From a virus (lineage: Duplodnaviria; Caudoviricetes), in the IMG/VR virus record IMGVR_UViG_3300013212_000088, positions 96,001 through 160,000 of that record: a stretch of DNA of 64,000 bases; one strand, 5' to 3'. Below the pieces are notes generated by a model. The model worked only from the letters and a program-made list of their open reading frames with translations. It had not been told where the DNA came from and ran no database searches. The position numbers and the translations under genes are program-made. Each line of letters begins with the position of its first letter. Position 1 is the first letter of the stretch. Below are positions 57,861-63,372 of the stretch, piece after piece.

Positions 57861-58091
57861 ATGTTCATTTTTTCAAAAGCCTTCCCATTAATGAAAAAAG
57901 GTTATAGAATCCGTCATAAAAGATGGCCCGAGCTTTATTTCATTTTACTTAAAGAAAATAAAGTTTACGATAGTAGTGGAAATCTATACAGCGAAGATTT
58001 TGAAGACTATTTAATTAAAAATTCTGATGTTCAAGATAACGCTGGGCATATTTGGGAACTTTATTATGAAGTTTTAGATGAAAACTTATGA
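57861..58091 (+). CDS. Divergent DUF2829/Tad2-like protein
   Basis: FSKAFPLMKKGYRIRHKRW...WE; N-terminal half of the family signature. Confidence 0.5.
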   Translation: MFIFSKAFPLMKKGYRIRHKRWPELYFILLKENKVYDSSGNLYSEDFEDYLIKNSDVQDNAGHIWELYYEVLDENL

Positions 58092-58402
58092 ACGAAAAAG
58101 AGTGGATTGAGAAAATTAAAAAAGAATGCATATTAAACATTGGCAATTTTGATGTAAAATATGCAATCCAATTAGTGGGTCGTTCTGGAAGTAAAATTGG
58201 AATTGTTTCTCTTAACAAAAGATTCATGTCTGTTGATATAATCGATAAAGTTAAATATGAAAGATTTTACGATAACTTTTATTCAAGAAACAACAAAGAG
58301 GCTAGACCACCTTTGGTAATCGATTATCACATTGAGCATCCTATAACACAAAAAGGATTTAAAGTTCTTTGGCATTTTTATTATGGAAAATTTAAAAAGT
58401 AA
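58088..58402 (+). CDS. Hypothetical protein
   Basis: 104 aa; ATGA overlap. Confidence 0.6.
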   Translation: MNEKEWIEKIKKECILNIGNFDVKYAIQLVGRSGSKIGIVSLNKRFMSVDIIDKVKYERFYDNFYSRNNKEARPPLVIDYHIEHPITQKGFKVLWHFYYGKFKK

Positions 58403-58992
58403 TGGCAAGATTTAAGCATAGTTTTTTCAGATACATACCAAGTACTGATGAGAGACAATCTTTTTTTAAGTTTGTAGAGACGTTCGAAACTGATAATGAT
58501 TCAGTTCCAAAGTATGATGATCATTATTGCATTGATCATATTGTCAATTTAGACAATGGGCAAATGAGAGTTAAAAATCATTCAGCACCAGAATATTGCG
58601 TGTCCAAATATGTAGGATGGTCTTTAAGCCTACCTCCCGTCGAAAAGACAAATAAACAAGAAATATATGTAGTTATTCATAGAAGTTCTTTTGCTCACAA
58701 AAGAATTGAATTTGATGAGTTTTTAGAGCCAAAAGATAAGCGATATACTCAAGATGAATGGAACTCTCTCTTATCTTCAATTGAAAAGAAGTTCAATAGA
58801 CAAAAAGAATGGGCTAAAGAAGGTATCAGAGTTCCAAGTCAATATGAAGATGGAACTCAAGTATTTAGAGCTGAAGAAGAGTTTAGAGCATTTTCATTAG
58901 GAAGACGTGCTTATTTCCTTTATCATTTAGTAAATAGTCATAAGTTTACTCATCTAGTTCGTAGGTTGAATATTGGGTATACAAGTGGATAA
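58402..58992 (+). CDS. Hypothetical protein
   Basis: 196 aa; TAATG overlap. Confidence 0.6.
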   Translation: MARFKHSFFRYIPSTDERQSFFKFVETFETDNDSVPKYDDHYCIDHIVNLDNGQMRVKNHSAPEYCVSKYVGWSLSLPPVEKTNKQEIYVVIHRSSFAHKRIEFDEFLEPKDKRYTQDEWNSLLSSIEKKFNRQKEWAKEGIRVPSQYEDGTQVFRAEEEFRAFSLGRRAYFLYHLVNSHKFTHLVRRLNIGYTSG

Positions 58993-59233
58993 AACTACCA
59001 TCATCAATTGTGATTGCTTGTGTCATTCTTTACATGTACGTCCAGATACAGAATTAAAAACTGTGGATATATCACTTTGGAATTATGGTTTTAATGATGG
59101 TAAATTACATTGGAAAAAAAGATTACAAATTCTTATTGATGGATTTGCTTACTCAGATTTAGTTGTTTTAGATAAAGAAGAGCTTGATAAATTAATTATT
59201 GCACTGGAGGAAGCCCGTGGAAGAATTGCCTAA
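58973..59233 (+). CDS. Small phage hypothetical protein with a CDCLCH motif
   Basis: 86 aa; CxCxCH metal-binding-like motif. The start is uncertain. Confidence 0.55.
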   Translation: MGIQVDKTTIINCDCLCHSLHVRPDTELKTVDISLWNYGFNDGKLHWKKRLQILIDGFAYSDLVVLDKEELDKLIIALEEARGRIA

Positions 59234-60068
59234 AAACCAAAAAGAGTACTATCATAACAAAGTTCGTGAGTTTGAAAAGCGCACAGGAAAAAGTATGAAT
59301 GTTAAGGGTGTTAGTAAAATGTATGATTGTAATATTGAATATGCTATATATGACACTCCAGCTGCTATGAACATGATGCAAAAACACGGATGCTATATCT
59401 ATCACAGTTTATTAGCAGAAGAAGACCCTCGCCCTAATGGTACTGACTGGCAGATGTATGCTTTCGCTTATGTAAATGGCAAGGTATACAAATACTATTA
59501 TGAAACCAAACAATGGGGTGCAGAAGTTAAAGATTTTACACATCACCAAAATGAAGACAAAACTTGGAAAGCTGCGAAGTTGGATAAGGCTAATTTCCCA
59601 TATACTTTAGATCCAGGTGAAGATTACTTACCTTATGCAGTCGAAAACAAGCATATTGGCTCTAATTTTGATGATTTTTTAAAGACAAATAAAATTGAAC
59701 TAAAAAGAGATATCAATTGGGCTGTAAAAATGCTTAATGCTGGAAAGATGATGTCTAGAGAAGGTAATCCTAGTCTTACATTATTTCCTAAAAAATATGA
59801 CCATGCAGAATCCACAATCACCACAGAAGATCTTTTTGCTGAAGATTGGGTTGTGGTGCAGAGTAAATCATTCAAAGATGTAGTGGATGATTTAAATGCT
59901 GGAAAAACAATCAGACGTAAAAGTTGGCATTCTGATTGGGGTGTTGGTAAATATGCTAGATACGGCAAAATTATTTATTTAGATTTAATTGCTGATGACT
60001 GGGAAGTTGTTGATGTCGTAGCTGAAGTTGATAAAATTCAAAAAGACCTAAAAGATGGAAAAATTTAG
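59199..60068 (+). CDS. Multidomain protein: unknown N-terminal domain, XRE-leader-like peptide, and two miniature DUF2829/Tad2-like units
   Basis: NKHIGSNFDDFLK, then INWAVKMLNAGKMMSREG..EDLFAEDWVVV and SFKDVVDDLNAGKTIRRKSW..DLIADDWEVV. The true start is probably downstream of 59199. Confidence 0.65.
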   Translation: MHWRKPVEELPKNQKEYYHNKVREFEKRTGKSMNVKGVSKMYDCNIEYAIYDTPAAMNMMQKHGCYIYHSLLAEEDPRPNGTDWQMYAFAYVNGKVYKYYYETKQWGAEVKDFTHHQNEDKTWKAAKLDKANFPYTLDPGEDYLPYAVENKHIGSNFDDFLKTNKIELKRDINWAVKMLNAGKMMSREGNPSLTLFPKKYDHAESTITTEDLFAEDWVVVQSKSFKDVVDDLNAGKTIRRKSWHSDWGVGKYARYGKIIYLDLIADDWEVVDVVAEVDKIQKDLKDGKI

Positions 60069-60255
60069 TGCAATTTTATTATCAGCAATTTTTGTCTGTT
60101 CCTTATGTAGCTGGGCTTACTTTCTTATAGGATCATTTAAAGTTGTTATTAAGAAAGATCGATCTTTCTTGCAATTCACTTCTTCTTTTCTTATAATTAG
60201 TGGAATGTTAAGTAGTTTGTTTTTCTTGGTTCTGAGAGTATTTTATGGAAGCTGA
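60055..60255 (+). CDS. Small two-TM membrane protein
   Basis: Two hydrophobic stretches separated by KKDR. Confidence 0.6.
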   Translation: MEKFSAILLSAIFVCSLCSWAYFLIGSFKVVIKKDRSFLQFTSSFLIISGMLSSLFFLVLRVFYGS

Positions 60256-61939: not shown

Positions 61940-62649
61940 CTGGAATTGAAGCTTTATCCCTGTTAAAAGATGGCAAAACTTTAAGAAGAGAATCCTGGGA
62001 ACCTCATGAAAAATGTAAAGCTTTAGATTTCTTTGGTCAATGGATTGTACACCTGATAAAAGAACATGATGATGAAAAGTTAGACAAAGAATTAGAGTCA
62101 ATATTTCAAAACAGTTTTACATTTACAAAGACCACTTTTGATGATTTCTTTGGATTATTTGATACAATAGATGCTGGAGAATTTCTTCATGATGATTGGC
62201 AAATTCAAAATGGCGAAAAAGAGAGACAAATAATTATAGAAAATATTATTATTCAAGCAGTTGACTGTTATCGACATGACTATTGGAAAGTAAGTTTAGA
62301 TTTGCTTGCCCAATTAAATATTTTTGATGCTATAAGTGATGATTCTTATTTGGGTAATGGGTCAGAACCTCTAAATGAAGATGGTTATGCCTATCTTGAA
62401 ATTGATTCTGATTGTAGTATTTTTGATAAAGCGATGAAGTTCTACAAAAAAGAATATTCGCTTGATTTAGATACACTTACAGAAGCTTATTGTGACGAAT
62501 ATGAAGATTATCGTGACTGGCTTGATCAATTAGATTCATATGATGTAGAGCTCTTAGATGAAAAAGGCTATACTGTTGATAATGTTCCTGAAGATTTATC
62601 TGCTGTTTTGATGGCGGATGAAGATGACGAAGAAGAGGATGAAGATTAA
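61936..62649 (+). CDS. DUF2829/Tad2-like N-terminal domain (MTG subtype) fused to a very acidic C-terminal domain
   Basis: MTGIEALSLLKDGKTLRRESW..GEFLHDDWQI, then about 145 aa rich in D/E ending DEDDEEEDED. Confidence 0.65.
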   Translation: MTGIEALSLLKDGKTLRRESWEPHEKCKALDFFGQWIVHLIKEHDDEKLDKELESIFQNSFTFTKTTFDDFFGLFDTIDAGEFLHDDWQIQNGEKERQIIIENIIIQAVDCYRHDYWKVSLDLLAQLNIFDAISDDSYLGNGSEPLNEDGYAYLEIDSDCSIFDKAMKFYKKEYSLDLDTLTEAYCDEYEDYRDWLDQLDSYDVELLDEKGYTVDNVPEDLSAVLMADEDDEEEDED

Positions 62650-62879
62650 TGTTAAATATCAATTTTGATTTATTTTATGAATTGAAACAAGGTTCTGTAA
62701 TTTCTAATACAGATAAGGATGTTGTCAAATATTGGAGAATGGTTGATGGTAATTTAGAAACAAGAATGGTCATCAATAAAGATGCACAAGATGATTGGTA
62801 TGTCACTGATCTATTTGTATTCCCTGTAGATGGAAAGTTTAATATTGAAGAGCGTTTTGAAAGATTTAGTTATGGATGA
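62649..62879 (+). CDS. Paralogue family B, copy 3
   Basis: MLNINFDLFYELKQG..YWRMVDGNLE..W..FPVDGKFNI. Confidence 0.6.
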   Translation: MLNINFDLFYELKQGSVISNTDKDVVKYWRMVDGNLETRMVINKDAQDDWYVTDLFVFPVDGKFNIEERFERFSYG

Positions 62880-63111
62880 AAACAAAGCTAAACGCCTTGA
62901 AAATATCGGCTTTAAAGTGGGGACACTAGCTGATTTTCTTAATCTTAACCCAGAAGAACAATCACAAATTGATAATGTCATAATTAAAAACGGCAAGCCA
63001 ATTGGTATTTGTGATTGTTTGGGTAAAGGAAAAGGATCTTGTAAAGGCAATGGATGGATAAGAGATGGAGCTGGATATCAAAGATGTCCTTACTTTACAT
63101 CTTTCGAGTAA
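62872..63111 (+). CDS. XRE-leader-like peptide fused to a DnaJ-like Cys/Gly zinc finger
   Basis: Start revised to 62872. MDENKAKRLENIGFKVGTLADFLNLNPEE plus CDCLGKGKGSCKGNGW..RCP. Confidence 0.6.
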   Translation: MDENKAKRLENIGFKVGTLADFLNLNPEEQSQIDNVIIKNGKPIGICDCLGKGKGSCKGNGWIRDGAGYQRCPYFTSFE

Positions 63112-63117
63112 ATAATT

Positions 63118-63372
63118 ATGAAATTCGTACAAACTCTGAAACATCTTAAACAGGGATTCAAAGCACGTAGAAAAAGTTGGGATGAATTATTTTGGATTTC
63201 TCTTGGTAATACTAAACAAGATGATGAAGGTGAGTTCGATGAAACTATTCTTGATAATAGCGAGCTTACTCCAGAAACATTTTTCTTAATTAATTTACAC
63301 GAAGGCATTGAAGCTTTTTGCCCATACTTACAAGACATAGAAGCTGATGATTGGATGATAGTAGAGGATTAA
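63118..63372 (+). CDS. DUF2829/Tad2-like protein (closest to the canonical signature)
   Basis: MKFVQTLKHLKQGFKARRKSW..FCPYLQDIEADDWMIVE matches F..AL..LK.G..v.R..W..P...D..A.DW. Confidence 0.75.
   Translation: MKFVQTLKHLKQGFKARRKSWDELFWISLGNTKQDDEGEFDETILDNSELTPETFFLINLHEGIEAFCPYLQDIEADDWMIVED

What the first reader, a model, noticed from the sequence alone, without database searches (positions are those of the whole stretch)
57861..63372. Expanded, diversified array of about 9 DUF2829/Tad2-like units: candidate multi-specificity immune-signal sponge locus
Seen in sequence: eight ORFs (57861, 59199 with two units, 60959, 61225, 61439, 61721, 61936, 63118) share a helix-L-x-x-G-x-x-x-x-R-x-x-W start. 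All but 57861, which ends in a divergent WE, also share a D-x-x-x-[DNE]-[DF]-W end. They fall into subtypes (MKFSE x3, MTG x2). The middles and the residues before the final motif differ in every copy, and the starts of the MKFSE copies differ at synonymous positions, so these are old, retained duplications. Several are coupled by ATGA-type overlaps behind a near-consensus sigma70 promoter. Established: DUF2829 includes Tad2, an oligomeric phage sponge that sequesters Thoeris gcADPR and, in some homologues, cyclic dinucleotides. Inference: a tandem battery with rewired pockets could cover several nucleotide signals (Thoeris, CBASS, Pycsar or unknown ones), possibly through hetero-oligomers. 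I do not recall this many copies being described in one locus.
Basis: partly seen in the sequence, partly recalled or inferred. Interest (0 to 1): 0.85.

Follow-up and report, generated by a model that had tools for sequence, protein, structure and literature searches.

The report
Nine-unit Tad2-like gene array
A freshwater jumbo phage carries eight neighbouring genes holding nine old, diverged copies of the Tad2 fold, which other phages use to soak up bacterial alarm molecules; its relatives keep and reshuffle the array, but the known ligand-holding residues are mostly missing, so what the copies bind is unknown.

Summary
Eight + strand genes at 57861-63372 carry nine Tad2-like (Pfam PF11195) units, and the 261-kb phage genome holds no others. 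Paralogs share 25-48% identity. Each has orthologs in related lake and estuary phage contigs (dN/dS mostly 0.13-0.3). Complete loci there carry 7-11 units on a shared backbone order with variable slots, and the clade holds about 20-27 sequence types.

The 63118 copy models confidently. Its top 24 PDB matches are all Tad2 structures, and a homotetramer model scores 0.69 against 0.00 for controls.

The gcADPR-binding residues of SPO1 Tad2 and HgmTad2 are poorly kept. The Trp and Asp are retained in eight of nine units, the Asn in none, and the second-Trp loop is deleted in eight of nine. Two units are 50-residue minis.

The 237-aa ORF at 61936 is a fusion made by a 414-bp deletion found only in this genome.

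The genome's only two exact TTGCAA-N17-TATAAT promoter-like sites lie in this block.

My reading is a probably early-expressed battery of diversified Tad2-family ligand sponges with unknown ligands (confidence about 0.5). This scan has already found smaller arrays (3-6 copies) in other phages. I found no paper describing such arrays.

The parts
57827..57855 (+). Promoter-like element TTGCAA-N17-TATAAT. Its -10 hexamer ends 5 nt before the ATG at 57861, which would give a leaderless-type start.
   Evidence: Found by the scan. It is one of only two exact copies in the 261-kb genome, where shuffles give 0.23. Both hexamers are kept in diverged relatives whose flanks differ.
57861..58091 (+). Tad2-like unit 1 (76 aa), the most divergent copy. 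It ends in IWELYY.
   Evidence: PF11195 at 19.4 bits and E 0.0016. Orthologs occur in 7 related loci. dN/dS against L020 is 0.13.
59199..60068 (+). 289-aa protein with an N-terminal region of unknown family, two tandem mini Tad2-like units and a C-terminal helix.
   Evidence: PF11195 at 26.4 bits. Two HMM envelopes. AF2 model. Orthologs in 26 loci.
59706..59867 (+). Mini unit a (about 53 aa). It lacks the family Trp; REGNP is conserved in its orthologs.
   Evidence: The model shows helix, strands, short helix and strand at pLDDT 67-79.
59865..60038 (+). Mini unit b (about 55 aa), with GKTIRRKSW and DLIADDWEVV.
   Evidence: Modelled at pLDDT 72-88.
60169..60197 (+). Second exact TTGCAA-N17-TATAAT element, inside the array and 48 nt upstream of the ATG at 60245.
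60514..60969 (+). Two members (60514-60729 and 60739-60969) of a second small paralog family that is interleaved with the array.
   Evidence: 24-30% identity among the three members. Orthologs exist in relatives. No Pfam or PHROG hit. Not related to Tad2 by hhalign.
60959..61228 (+). Tad2-like unit, MTG subtype (89 aa), with a long 57-residue insert.
   Evidence: PF11195 at 24.8 bits over the full model length. dN/dS 0.16.
61225..61452 (+). Tad2-like unit, MKFSE subtype (75 aa). Its start overlaps the previous stop as ATGA.
   Evidence: PF11195 at 39.5 bits. Overlap shown. dN/dS 0.27.
61439..61705 (+). Tad2-like unit, MKFSE subtype (88 aa), with an acidic tail.
   Evidence: PF11195 at 35.0 bits. 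48 related metagenome loci. dN/dS 0.04-0.6.
61721..61939 (+). Tad2-like unit, MKFSE subtype (72 aa).
   Evidence: PF11195 at 28.9 bits. dN/dS 0.13-0.25.
61936..62649 (+). 237-aa fusion ORF. It joins an MTG-subtype Tad2-like unit (aa 1-92) in frame to a 137-aa acidic protein, with the junction at 62204/62205.
   Evidence: PF11195 at 22 bits over aa 1-90. The two genes are separate in more than 40 relatives. This window lacks 414 bp present in L020.
62649..62879 (+). Third member of the interleaved second paralog family.
63118..63372 (+). Tad2-like unit with the full canonical architecture (84 aa). It is the only copy that keeps the beta4-alpha3 loop, as AFCPYLQD.
   Evidence: PF11195 at 43.6 bits. 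AF2 pLDDT 88.8. The top 24 Foldseek PDB hits are all Tad2 structures. Homotetramer model scores 0.69 against 0.00 for controls.

Best explanation
Shown: the locus is a conserved multigene family of Tad2-like (PF11195) small proteins, with nine domains in eight genes. It sits at the start of a + strand block of small genes in a freshwater jumbo phage. Each paralog lineage is old, has orthologs in related phages and evolves under purifying selection. Across the clade the array keeps a backbone order and swaps cassettes in variable slots.

Inferred: the block is transcribed early by the host RNA polymerase from the two sigma-70-type promoters, which are unique to it. The proteins would assemble into Tad2-type oligomers and act as counter-defence sponges, each paralog sequestering a different small-molecule immune signal. 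Specificity would be set by the variable insert and by the changed residues around the retained Trp/Asp pair. The ligands are probably not bound in the canonical gcADPR mode of SPO1 Tad2 or HgmTad2. The copy at 63118 is the best sponge candidate. The two 50-aa mini units in 59199 may form an intramolecular pseudo-dimer whose role is unclear.
For: - Family membership holds for all eight genes, and a profile of the units matches solved Tad2 structures at E down to 1.6e-8.
- The 63118 model has pLDDT 88.8. Its top 24 PDB matches are all Tad2 structures at TM 0.65-0.72.
- A four-copy model scores 0.69 against a best control of 0.00. That mark was reached by 20 of 30 solved homo-pairs and 1 of 23 single chains. 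The interface residues (4, 7, 10-11, 52-56, 66-72, 74-75) are the helix alpha1 and the beta4-alpha3 loop and alpha3 segments that form the tetramer and pocket in SPO1 Tad2 (bioRxiv 10.1101/2023.05.01.538930).
- Orthologs exist for every paralog, with dN/dS 0.04-0.6, mostly 0.13-0.3.
- Arrays of 7-11 units occur in all complete related loci, with a syntenic backbone and variable slots. The clade holds 20-27 sequence types.
- The insert length differs from 18 to 60 residues between paralogs. In HgmTad2 this insert builds the cyclic-dinucleotide pocket (bioRxiv 10.1101/2023.11.15.567273).
- In the 63118 orthogroup the pocket-equivalent segment FFLINLHEGIEAFCPYLQD is almost invariant, while the middle loop varies.
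- Every activity confirmed so far in this family is ligand sequestration, and specificities are diverse and narrow: 3'cADPR, His-ADPR, N7-cADPR, cGG/cGAMP and cUMP/cCMP (bioRxiv 10.1101/2025.08.24.671296).
- The promoter-like elements are unique to this block and conserved in relatives.
Against: - No binding or genetic data exist.
- Of the ten SPO1 Tad2 ligand-contact residues, 63118 keeps only W25 and D79. The other eight positions change: N26 to D, I63 to L, T65 to N, D67 to H, H71 to E, W73 to F, S76 to Y and T78 to Q.
- The other eight units lack the loop that carries H71, W73 and S76. None has the Asn after the Trp.
- Li et al. report the gcADPR site as conserved in about 99% of Tad2 homologues, so these copies are atypical.
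- The mini units lack beta3 and beta4.
- 19 of 84 tested sponge homologues inhibited none of seven systems.
- The host and its defence systems are unknown. The only clue is a 2.5-kb contig binned in a Candidatus Kapaibacterium MAG.
- The oligomer pass may reflect the model's memory of solved Tad2 tetramers.
- Early transcription is inferred from sequence only. Contigs from RNA libraries cover the array but do not prove transcription.
Confidence: 0.5

Rival explanations
1. The Tad2-like fold has been co-opted here for something other than sequestering immune signals. The proteins could be small inhibitors that bind host proteins, or binders of a metabolite unrelated to defence, and the family expanded for host takeover.
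For: The canonical ligand residues are mostly gone. The mini units cannot form the known pocket. The retained motifs (helix-G-x4-R-x2-W and D-x3-D-D-W) are family-wide and could be purely structural. A quarter of tested sponge homologues had no activity in the assays used.
Against: Every activity confirmed in this family so far is ligand sequestration, and the reported AcrIIA7 anti-Cas9 activity could not be reproduced. The Trp and Asp that touch the ligand in SPO1 Tad2 and HgmTad2 are kept in eight of nine units. The 63118 copy keeps the loop architecture and a Tad2-like oligomer interface.
Confidence: 0.3
2. The paralogs work mainly as hetero-oligomers. Mixed tetramers of neighbouring, translationally coupled copies would create hybrid pockets and so a combinatorial range of specificities.
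For: In Tad2 the pockets lie between protomers. Several copies are coupled by ATGA overlaps. Backbone types 1, 5 and 6 always sit next to each other. Many database relatives are two-domain tandem proteins, and 59199 carries two units in one chain.
Against: Variable slots gain and lose single copies without their neighbours, which fits independent units better.
Confidence: 0.12
3. The copies are redundant duplicates kept for gene dosage, or are decaying neutrally, without separate functions.
For: They are tandem, same-strand small genes of one family.
Against: Paralogs share only 25-48% identity. Each has its own orthologs across phages that have diverged to 72% identity. dN/dS is below 1 for every group. 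Conservation within each orthogroup is strong.
Confidence: 0.03

Closest known systems
SPO1 Tad2 (gp34.65; PDB 8SME/8SMF/8SMG, 8WJE), the founding Thoeris anti-defence 2 sponge
   Same: Same Pfam family and same fold: an N-terminal helix, an antiparallel sheet and a short helix before the last strand. It is the top Foldseek match to the 63118 model. Both are about 85-90 aa, both have a tetramer-type interface in the model, and both keep the W25 and D79 equivalents.
   Different: Sequence identity is only 23-28% over the Foldseek structural alignments. N26, W73, H71, S76 and T78 are replaced in 63118, and the whole W73 loop is missing in the other eight units. SPO1 Tad2 is described as a single gene, whereas this locus has nine units.
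ModTad2/MoTad2 (PDB 9EIB, 8V3E), a His-ADPR and cUMP/cCMP sponge with two separate pockets
   Same: It is the best sequence match to the profile of the nine units (E 1.6e-8). It shows that the family evolves new ligands and uses a second, insert-dependent pocket.
   Different: It keeps the WNG and W-x-P-S-x-S-D motifs, which the window's units lack (alignment).
HgmTad2 = AcrIIA7 (PDB 8KBI-8KBM, 8WJC) and SptTad2 (8WJD), Tad2 proteins with a long insert that binds cyclic dinucleotides
   Same: Same fold. The MTG subtypes (60959, 61936) and 63118 also have long inserts of 51-60 residues between the Trp and the end motif.
   Different: The inserts are not alignable with HgmTad2's. The gcADPR residues W21/N22 and S90/T92/D93 are only partly kept, and no cyclic-dinucleotide residues could be mapped.
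Tandem arrays of 3-6 mini Tad2-like genes recorded earlier in this scan, in Klebsiella N4-like phages, a 43-kb phage and a Salmonella-type phage
   Same: They are also tandem, overlapping, strongly diverged copies in presumed early regions. Copy number varies between sister phages, and the canonical ligand residues are mostly missing.
   Different: This array is larger (nine units in eight genes, up to 11 in relatives). It mixes full-length, reduced and mini forms, lies in a jumbo phage of lakes and estuaries, and belongs to a clade-wide repertoire of 20-27 types.

Membership tests
Pfam PF11195 Tad2-like (DUF2829) | Match to the family HMM at or above the gathering score of 25 bits | tested here: met
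   Five of eight genes pass (26.4-43.6 bits). The other three score 24.8, 22.0 and 19.4 bits with alignments over most or all of the model, and they join the family through the profile of the units.
Pfam PF11195 Tad2-like (DUF2829) | Tad2 fold: helix alpha1, an antiparallel beta-sheet, and a short helix alpha3 before the last strand | tested here: met
   The 63118 model has pLDDT 88.8, and its top 24 PDB hits are all Tad2 at TM 0.65-0.72. This was tested by model only for 63118. The 59199 mini units show a reduced version at medium confidence.
Tad2 sponge (functional class) | Homotetramer with pockets between protomers | tested here: inconclusive
   A four-copy model of 63118 scores 0.69 against controls at 0.00, with the interface on alpha1 and the beta4-alpha3/alpha3 segments. 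This is an in-silico pass that may come from the model's memory of solved Tad2 tetramers. The other paralogs were not tested.
Tad2 gcADPR sponge (SPO1 Tad2 / HgmTad2 type) | Trp-Asn(-Gly) after the conserved Arg (SPO1 W25/N26; HgmTad2 W21/N22/G23) | tested here: not met
   The Trp is kept in eight of nine units and is absent from 59199 unit a. The Asn is kept in none; the residue there is P, P, H, E, A, E, E, E or D.
Tad2 gcADPR sponge (SPO1 Tad2 / HgmTad2 type) | beta4-alpha3 loop with the second Trp and Ser/Thr (SPO1 H71/W73/S76/T78; HgmTad2 W87/S90/T92) | tested here: not met
   The loop is an insertion relative to the profile of the nine units, so it is deleted in eight of them. Only 63118 keeps it, as A-F-C-P-Y-L-Q, with Trp replaced by Phe, Ser by Tyr and Thr by Gln.
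Tad2 gcADPR sponge (SPO1 Tad2 / HgmTad2 type) | Asp at the start of alpha3 (SPO1 D79; HgmTad2 D93) | tested here: met
   It is Asp in eight of nine units and Glu in 61936.
Tad2 gcADPR sponge (SPO1 Tad2 / HgmTad2 type) | Sequesters the signal and rescues phage from Thoeris | not testable with these tools
   This needs purified protein, ligand assays and plaque assays.
Cyclic-dinucleotide-binding Tad2 (HgmTad2/SptTad2 type) | Long insert of about 40 aa between beta2 and beta5 that forms a second pocket within a dimer unit | tested here: inconclusive
   The distance from the Trp to the end motif is 57, 60 and 51 residues in 60959, 61936 and 63118, against 18-45 in the other six units. The residues cannot be aligned with HgmTad2 R31/S47/F70/N85.

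The most novel reading that the evidence does not exclude
This lake-phage clade maintains a shuffled library of more than 20 Tad2-derived sponge types. Any one genome carries 7-11 of them, and each is tuned to a different immune signal of its hosts, including signalling molecules not yet discovered. Narrow specificity would be favoured because decoy-based systems punish broad sponges. If so, each orthogroup would be a ready-made bait for fishing out new bacterial immune messengers.
Probability: 0.2. Interest if true: 0.85.

Novelty: new variant of a known kind. Interest (0 to 1): 0.6.

Why it matters
Tad2 is known as a single small sponge gene whose homologues have surprisingly varied and narrow ligand specificities. 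A phage lineage that keeps 7-11 diverged copies side by side, swaps cassettes between close relatives and holds each copy under purifying selection suggests that one fold has been multiplied into a counter-defence repertoire.

If the copies bind different molecules, the array offers a natural panel for mapping how specificity is encoded in this fold. It would also offer baits for finding new immune signals, as Tad1 and MoTad2 already did for 3'cADPR and His-ADPR.

If the copies do not bind nucleotides, the family has a second, unknown function that is widespread in phages. Either result is informative.

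Tried and rejected
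- Nucleotide search of the region against GenBank phages found no match. tblastn with 61439 found nothing, and 63118 matched only two Listeria phage fragments at 38% identity. No annotated relative is therefore available.
- The search for related loci with the nine-unit alignment failed because the alignment was too diverse. Single-protein queries worked.
- A possible third, degenerate Tad2-like unit in the N-terminal half of 59199 (aa 53-127) has a similar secondary-structure order in the model. hhalign gives a probability of 1%. Foldseek on the whole model gives only weak Tad2 rows at E above 0.1. I did not count it.
- The interleaved second family (60514, 60739, 62649) is not a hidden Tad2 relative. 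hhalign gives a probability of 0.5%, there is no Pfam or PHROG hit, and the Atlas has no usable hit.
- Host identification yielded only a 2.5-kb contig binned in a Candidatus Kapaibacterium MAG, which is too weak to use.
- Expression is unresolved. Short contigs from four metatranscriptome libraries lie on the array and on the neighbouring structural gene. Contigs from RNA libraries can come from DNA carry-over and show no transcript starts, so this is no proof of transcription or timing.
- Literature search found no description of multi-copy Tad2 arrays. This covers only the open-access library that was searched.

Full report
**Setting.** The window is bases 96001-160000 of a 261,424-bp IMG/VR virus record that CheckV estimates to be 73% complete. 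It is a jumbo phage with about 32% G+C and giant minus-strand ORFs up to 1,782 aa. Near-identical sequence occurs in lake, freshwater and estuary metagenomes from eight studies. At 57827/57861 the coding strand switches. A minus-strand 805-aa gene ends its run there, and a + strand block of about 30 small genes begins. That block has a marked positive GC skew.

- Five exceed the 25-bit gathering score: 59199, 61225, 61439, 61721 and 63118.
- Three lie just under it at 24.8, 22.0 and 19.4 bits, with alignments over most or all of the model.
- ORF 59199 contains two units of about 50 residues, giving nine units in eight genes.
- Neither the Pfam model nor an HMM built from the nine units finds any further copy in the whole genome.
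- BLASTP-detectable paralog pairs share 25-48% identity.
- The three MKFSE copies differ at synonymous sites in their first codons, and three junctions are ATGA overlaps.

ORF 61225 has Tyr at the Gly position. Unit a of 59199 has no Trp. ORF 57861 has His at the Arg position. ORF 61936 begins the end motif with Glu.

**One ORF is not what it seems.** The 237-aa ORF at 61936 is a fusion. In more than 40 related loci, a Tad2-like gene (89-100 aa, mostly 92) and a 137-140-aa acidic protein gene are separate. The window lacks 414 bp that are present in its close relative L020. The junction at 62204/62205 joins the two genes in frame and removes two small ORFs. Whether this reflects a true variant or an assembly artefact cannot be decided here.

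**The array is conserved and under selection.**
- Five IMG/VR contigs and 48 metagenome contigs carry relatives.
- Every locus long enough to span the region has an array, with 7-11 units in 6-10 genes.
- A maximum-likelihood tree groups the units by paralog type rather than by genome, so the duplications predate the divergence of these phages.
- Ortholog pairs give dN/dS of 0.04-0.6, mostly 0.13-0.3.
- Each orthogroup is strongly conserved along most of its length.
- At 60% identity the window's order of types is [8,3,4,12,1,1,5,6,7]. Relatives share the backbone 8-3-4 ... 1-5-6-7 but carry other types (2, 9, 10, 11, 13, 14, 16 and more) in variable slots.
- Across the clade there are 20-27 sequence types at 40-50% identity.
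- Even the closest relative, at 85-94% nucleotide identity in the flanks, has a different cassette where the window has 60514-61124.

This is the pattern of a hypervariable but functional gene family.

**Family and fold.** A profile of the nine units matches solved Tad2 proteins only:

| Structure | E-value |
|---|---|
| ModTad2 (8V3E, 9EIB) | 1.6e-8 |
| SPO1 Tad2 (8SME) | 6e-6 |
| HgmTad2 / AcrIIA7 (8KBI) | 3e-4 |
| SptTad2 (8WJD) | 8e-4 |
| AcrIIA7 (9KZR) | 4e-3 |

The 63118 protein, modelled with a 40-row alignment, has a mean pLDDT of 88.8. Its 24 best PDB matches are all Tad2 structures at TM 0.65-0.72, after which the scores fall away. A four-copy model scored 0.69 in three runs against 0.00 for three controls. 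That mark was reached by 20 of 30 solved homo-pairs and 1 of 23 single chains in the tool's calibration. The tool warns that a pass for a family with a solved complex may come from memory. The confident interface residues lie on helix alpha1 (4, 7, 10-11), on 52-56, and on 66-72 and 74-75. These correspond to the beta4-alpha3 loop and helix alpha3, the elements that form the tetramer and the ligand pocket in SPO1 Tad2 (bioRxiv 10.1101/2023.05.01.538930).

**The known pocket is not conserved.** SPO1 Tad2 holds gcADPR with W25, N26, W73 and D79, assisted by I63, T65, D67, H71, S76 and T78. HgmTad2 uses W21/N22/G23, W87/L88 and S90/T92/D93. Li et al. state that this site is conserved in all but about 1% of Tad2 homologues.

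In 63118 the ten SPO1 positions read W21, D22, L57, N59, H61, E65, F67, Y70, Q72 and D73. Only the Trp and Asp are identical, although the loop architecture A-F-C-P-Y-L-Q-D is kept and is nearly invariant among orthologs.

In the other eight units the loop is absent. In the profile alignment the SPO1 segment KIHAWVPSQ is an insertion. None of the nine units has Asn after the Trp. The family-wide Trp and Asp remain in eight of nine units each.

The two units of 59199 are minis. The model (overall pLDDT 63.9; 67-88 in the units) shows a helix, two short strands, a short helix and a final strand, without beta3 and beta4. Many database relatives are two-domain proteins of 115-150 aa built from such short units, and a few have three or four.

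**What varies between paralogs.** The stretch between the Trp and the end motif is 18-20 residues in the minis, 33-45 in the MKFSE copies and 57861, 51 in 63118, and 57-60 in the MTG copies. In HgmTad2 and SptTad2 this insert forms a second pocket for cyclic dinucleotides. In MoTad2 the same interface binds cUMP. The paralogs therefore differ most in the part of the fold that is known to set a second specificity. That is compatible with diversified ligands but does not demonstrate them.

**Expression signals.**
- The element TTGCAA-N17-TATAAT at 57827-57855 ends five bases before the first ATG of the block, which suggests a leaderless first gene.
- A second exact copy lies at 60169-60197.
- These are the only two exact copies on either strand of the 261-kb genome, where shuffled sequence gives 0.23.
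- In relatives whose flanks and spacer differ, both hexamers are retained.

This supports real host-type promoters and, by inference, early transcription, as expected for counter-defence genes. Short contigs from four metatranscriptome libraries lie on the array. Such contigs cannot prove transcription or timing.

**Interpretation.** The most likely reading (about 0.5) is a battery of Tad2-family sponges with diversified, unknown ligands. The arguments for it are:
- ligand sequestration is the only activity confirmed in the family;
- specificities in the family are varied and narrow;
- 63118 has a canonical architecture and oligomer model;
- distinct paralog lineages are retained long-term;
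- the array sits behind host-type promoters.

The main rival (about 0.3) is that these reduced forms have left the sponge function. This is supported by the missing pocket residues and by the minis. Hetero-oligomer formation (about 0.12) is untested. Redundant or decaying duplicates are effectively excluded.

**Novelty.** I found no paper describing multi-copy Tad2 arrays in the searchable library. This scan has already recorded arrays of 3-6 Tad2-like copies in Klebsiella N4-like phages, a 43-kb phage and a Salmonella-type phage, and their follow-up agents reported the same loss of canonical residues. The present case is the largest of those and the first in a jumbo phage. It adds the clade-level picture of backbone plus variable slots, more than 20 types and a mix of full, reduced and mini forms. 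I class it as a new variant of a known kind.

Noticed in passing
window 60514-60729, 60739-60969, 62649-62879: A second family of 71-76-aa paralogs is interleaved with the Tad2-like genes. Members share 24-30% identity, with an invariant D7, G15, W29-R30 and W49. It has orthologs in relatives, no Pfam, PHROG or Atlas hit, and no relationship to Tad2 by hhalign.
   Followed up: partly
window 62204/62205 (ORF 61936-62649): A 414-bp deletion relative to close relatives fuses a 92-aa Tad2-like gene in frame to a 137-aa, very acidic protein gene and removes two small ORFs. It is seen only in this genome, so it may be a real variant or an assembly artefact.
   Followed up: yes
window 57827-57855 and 60169-60197: These are the only two exact TTGCAA-N17-TATAAT sites in the 261-kb genome. 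The first ends 5 nt before the ATG at 57861, which suggests a leaderless first gene. Its hexamers are conserved in diverged relatives.
   Followed up: partly
window 59199-59700 (aa 1-165 of the 289-aa protein): The N-terminal region varies in length between relatives, where the whole protein is 189, 232 or 287 aa. Residues 53-127 are modelled with a helix, strands, short helix and strand order reminiscent of a Tad2 unit, but profile comparison does not support homology.
   Followed up: partly
window 55410-57827 (- strand): This 805-aa protein lies divergent from the array. It has a central region containing an NEP motif typical of GH5-type glycoside hydrolases, a Pro-rich linker and a coiled C-terminus, so it may be a tail-associated depolymerase. 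It has no PHROG hit.
   Followed up: no
genome 160250-161403 (window 64250-65403, just beyond the window end): Two adjacent paralogs of 191 and 199 aa share 53% identity and have a GCWKGKSS motif that resembles class I SAM-methyltransferases. They lie in the same + strand block of small genes, followed by a FeoA-like 75-aa gene.
   Followed up: no
L021 (G002:C1:142202-142411) and L022 (G001:C1:65223-65435): Two related phages carry one extra Tad2-like gene far from the array, about 30-40 kb away. No counterpart was found in the window's genome.
   Followed up: no
window 35100-36446: A 448-aa protein matches PHROG 562, 'RNA ligase and tail fiber protein attachment catalyst' (E 1e-18).
   Followed up: no
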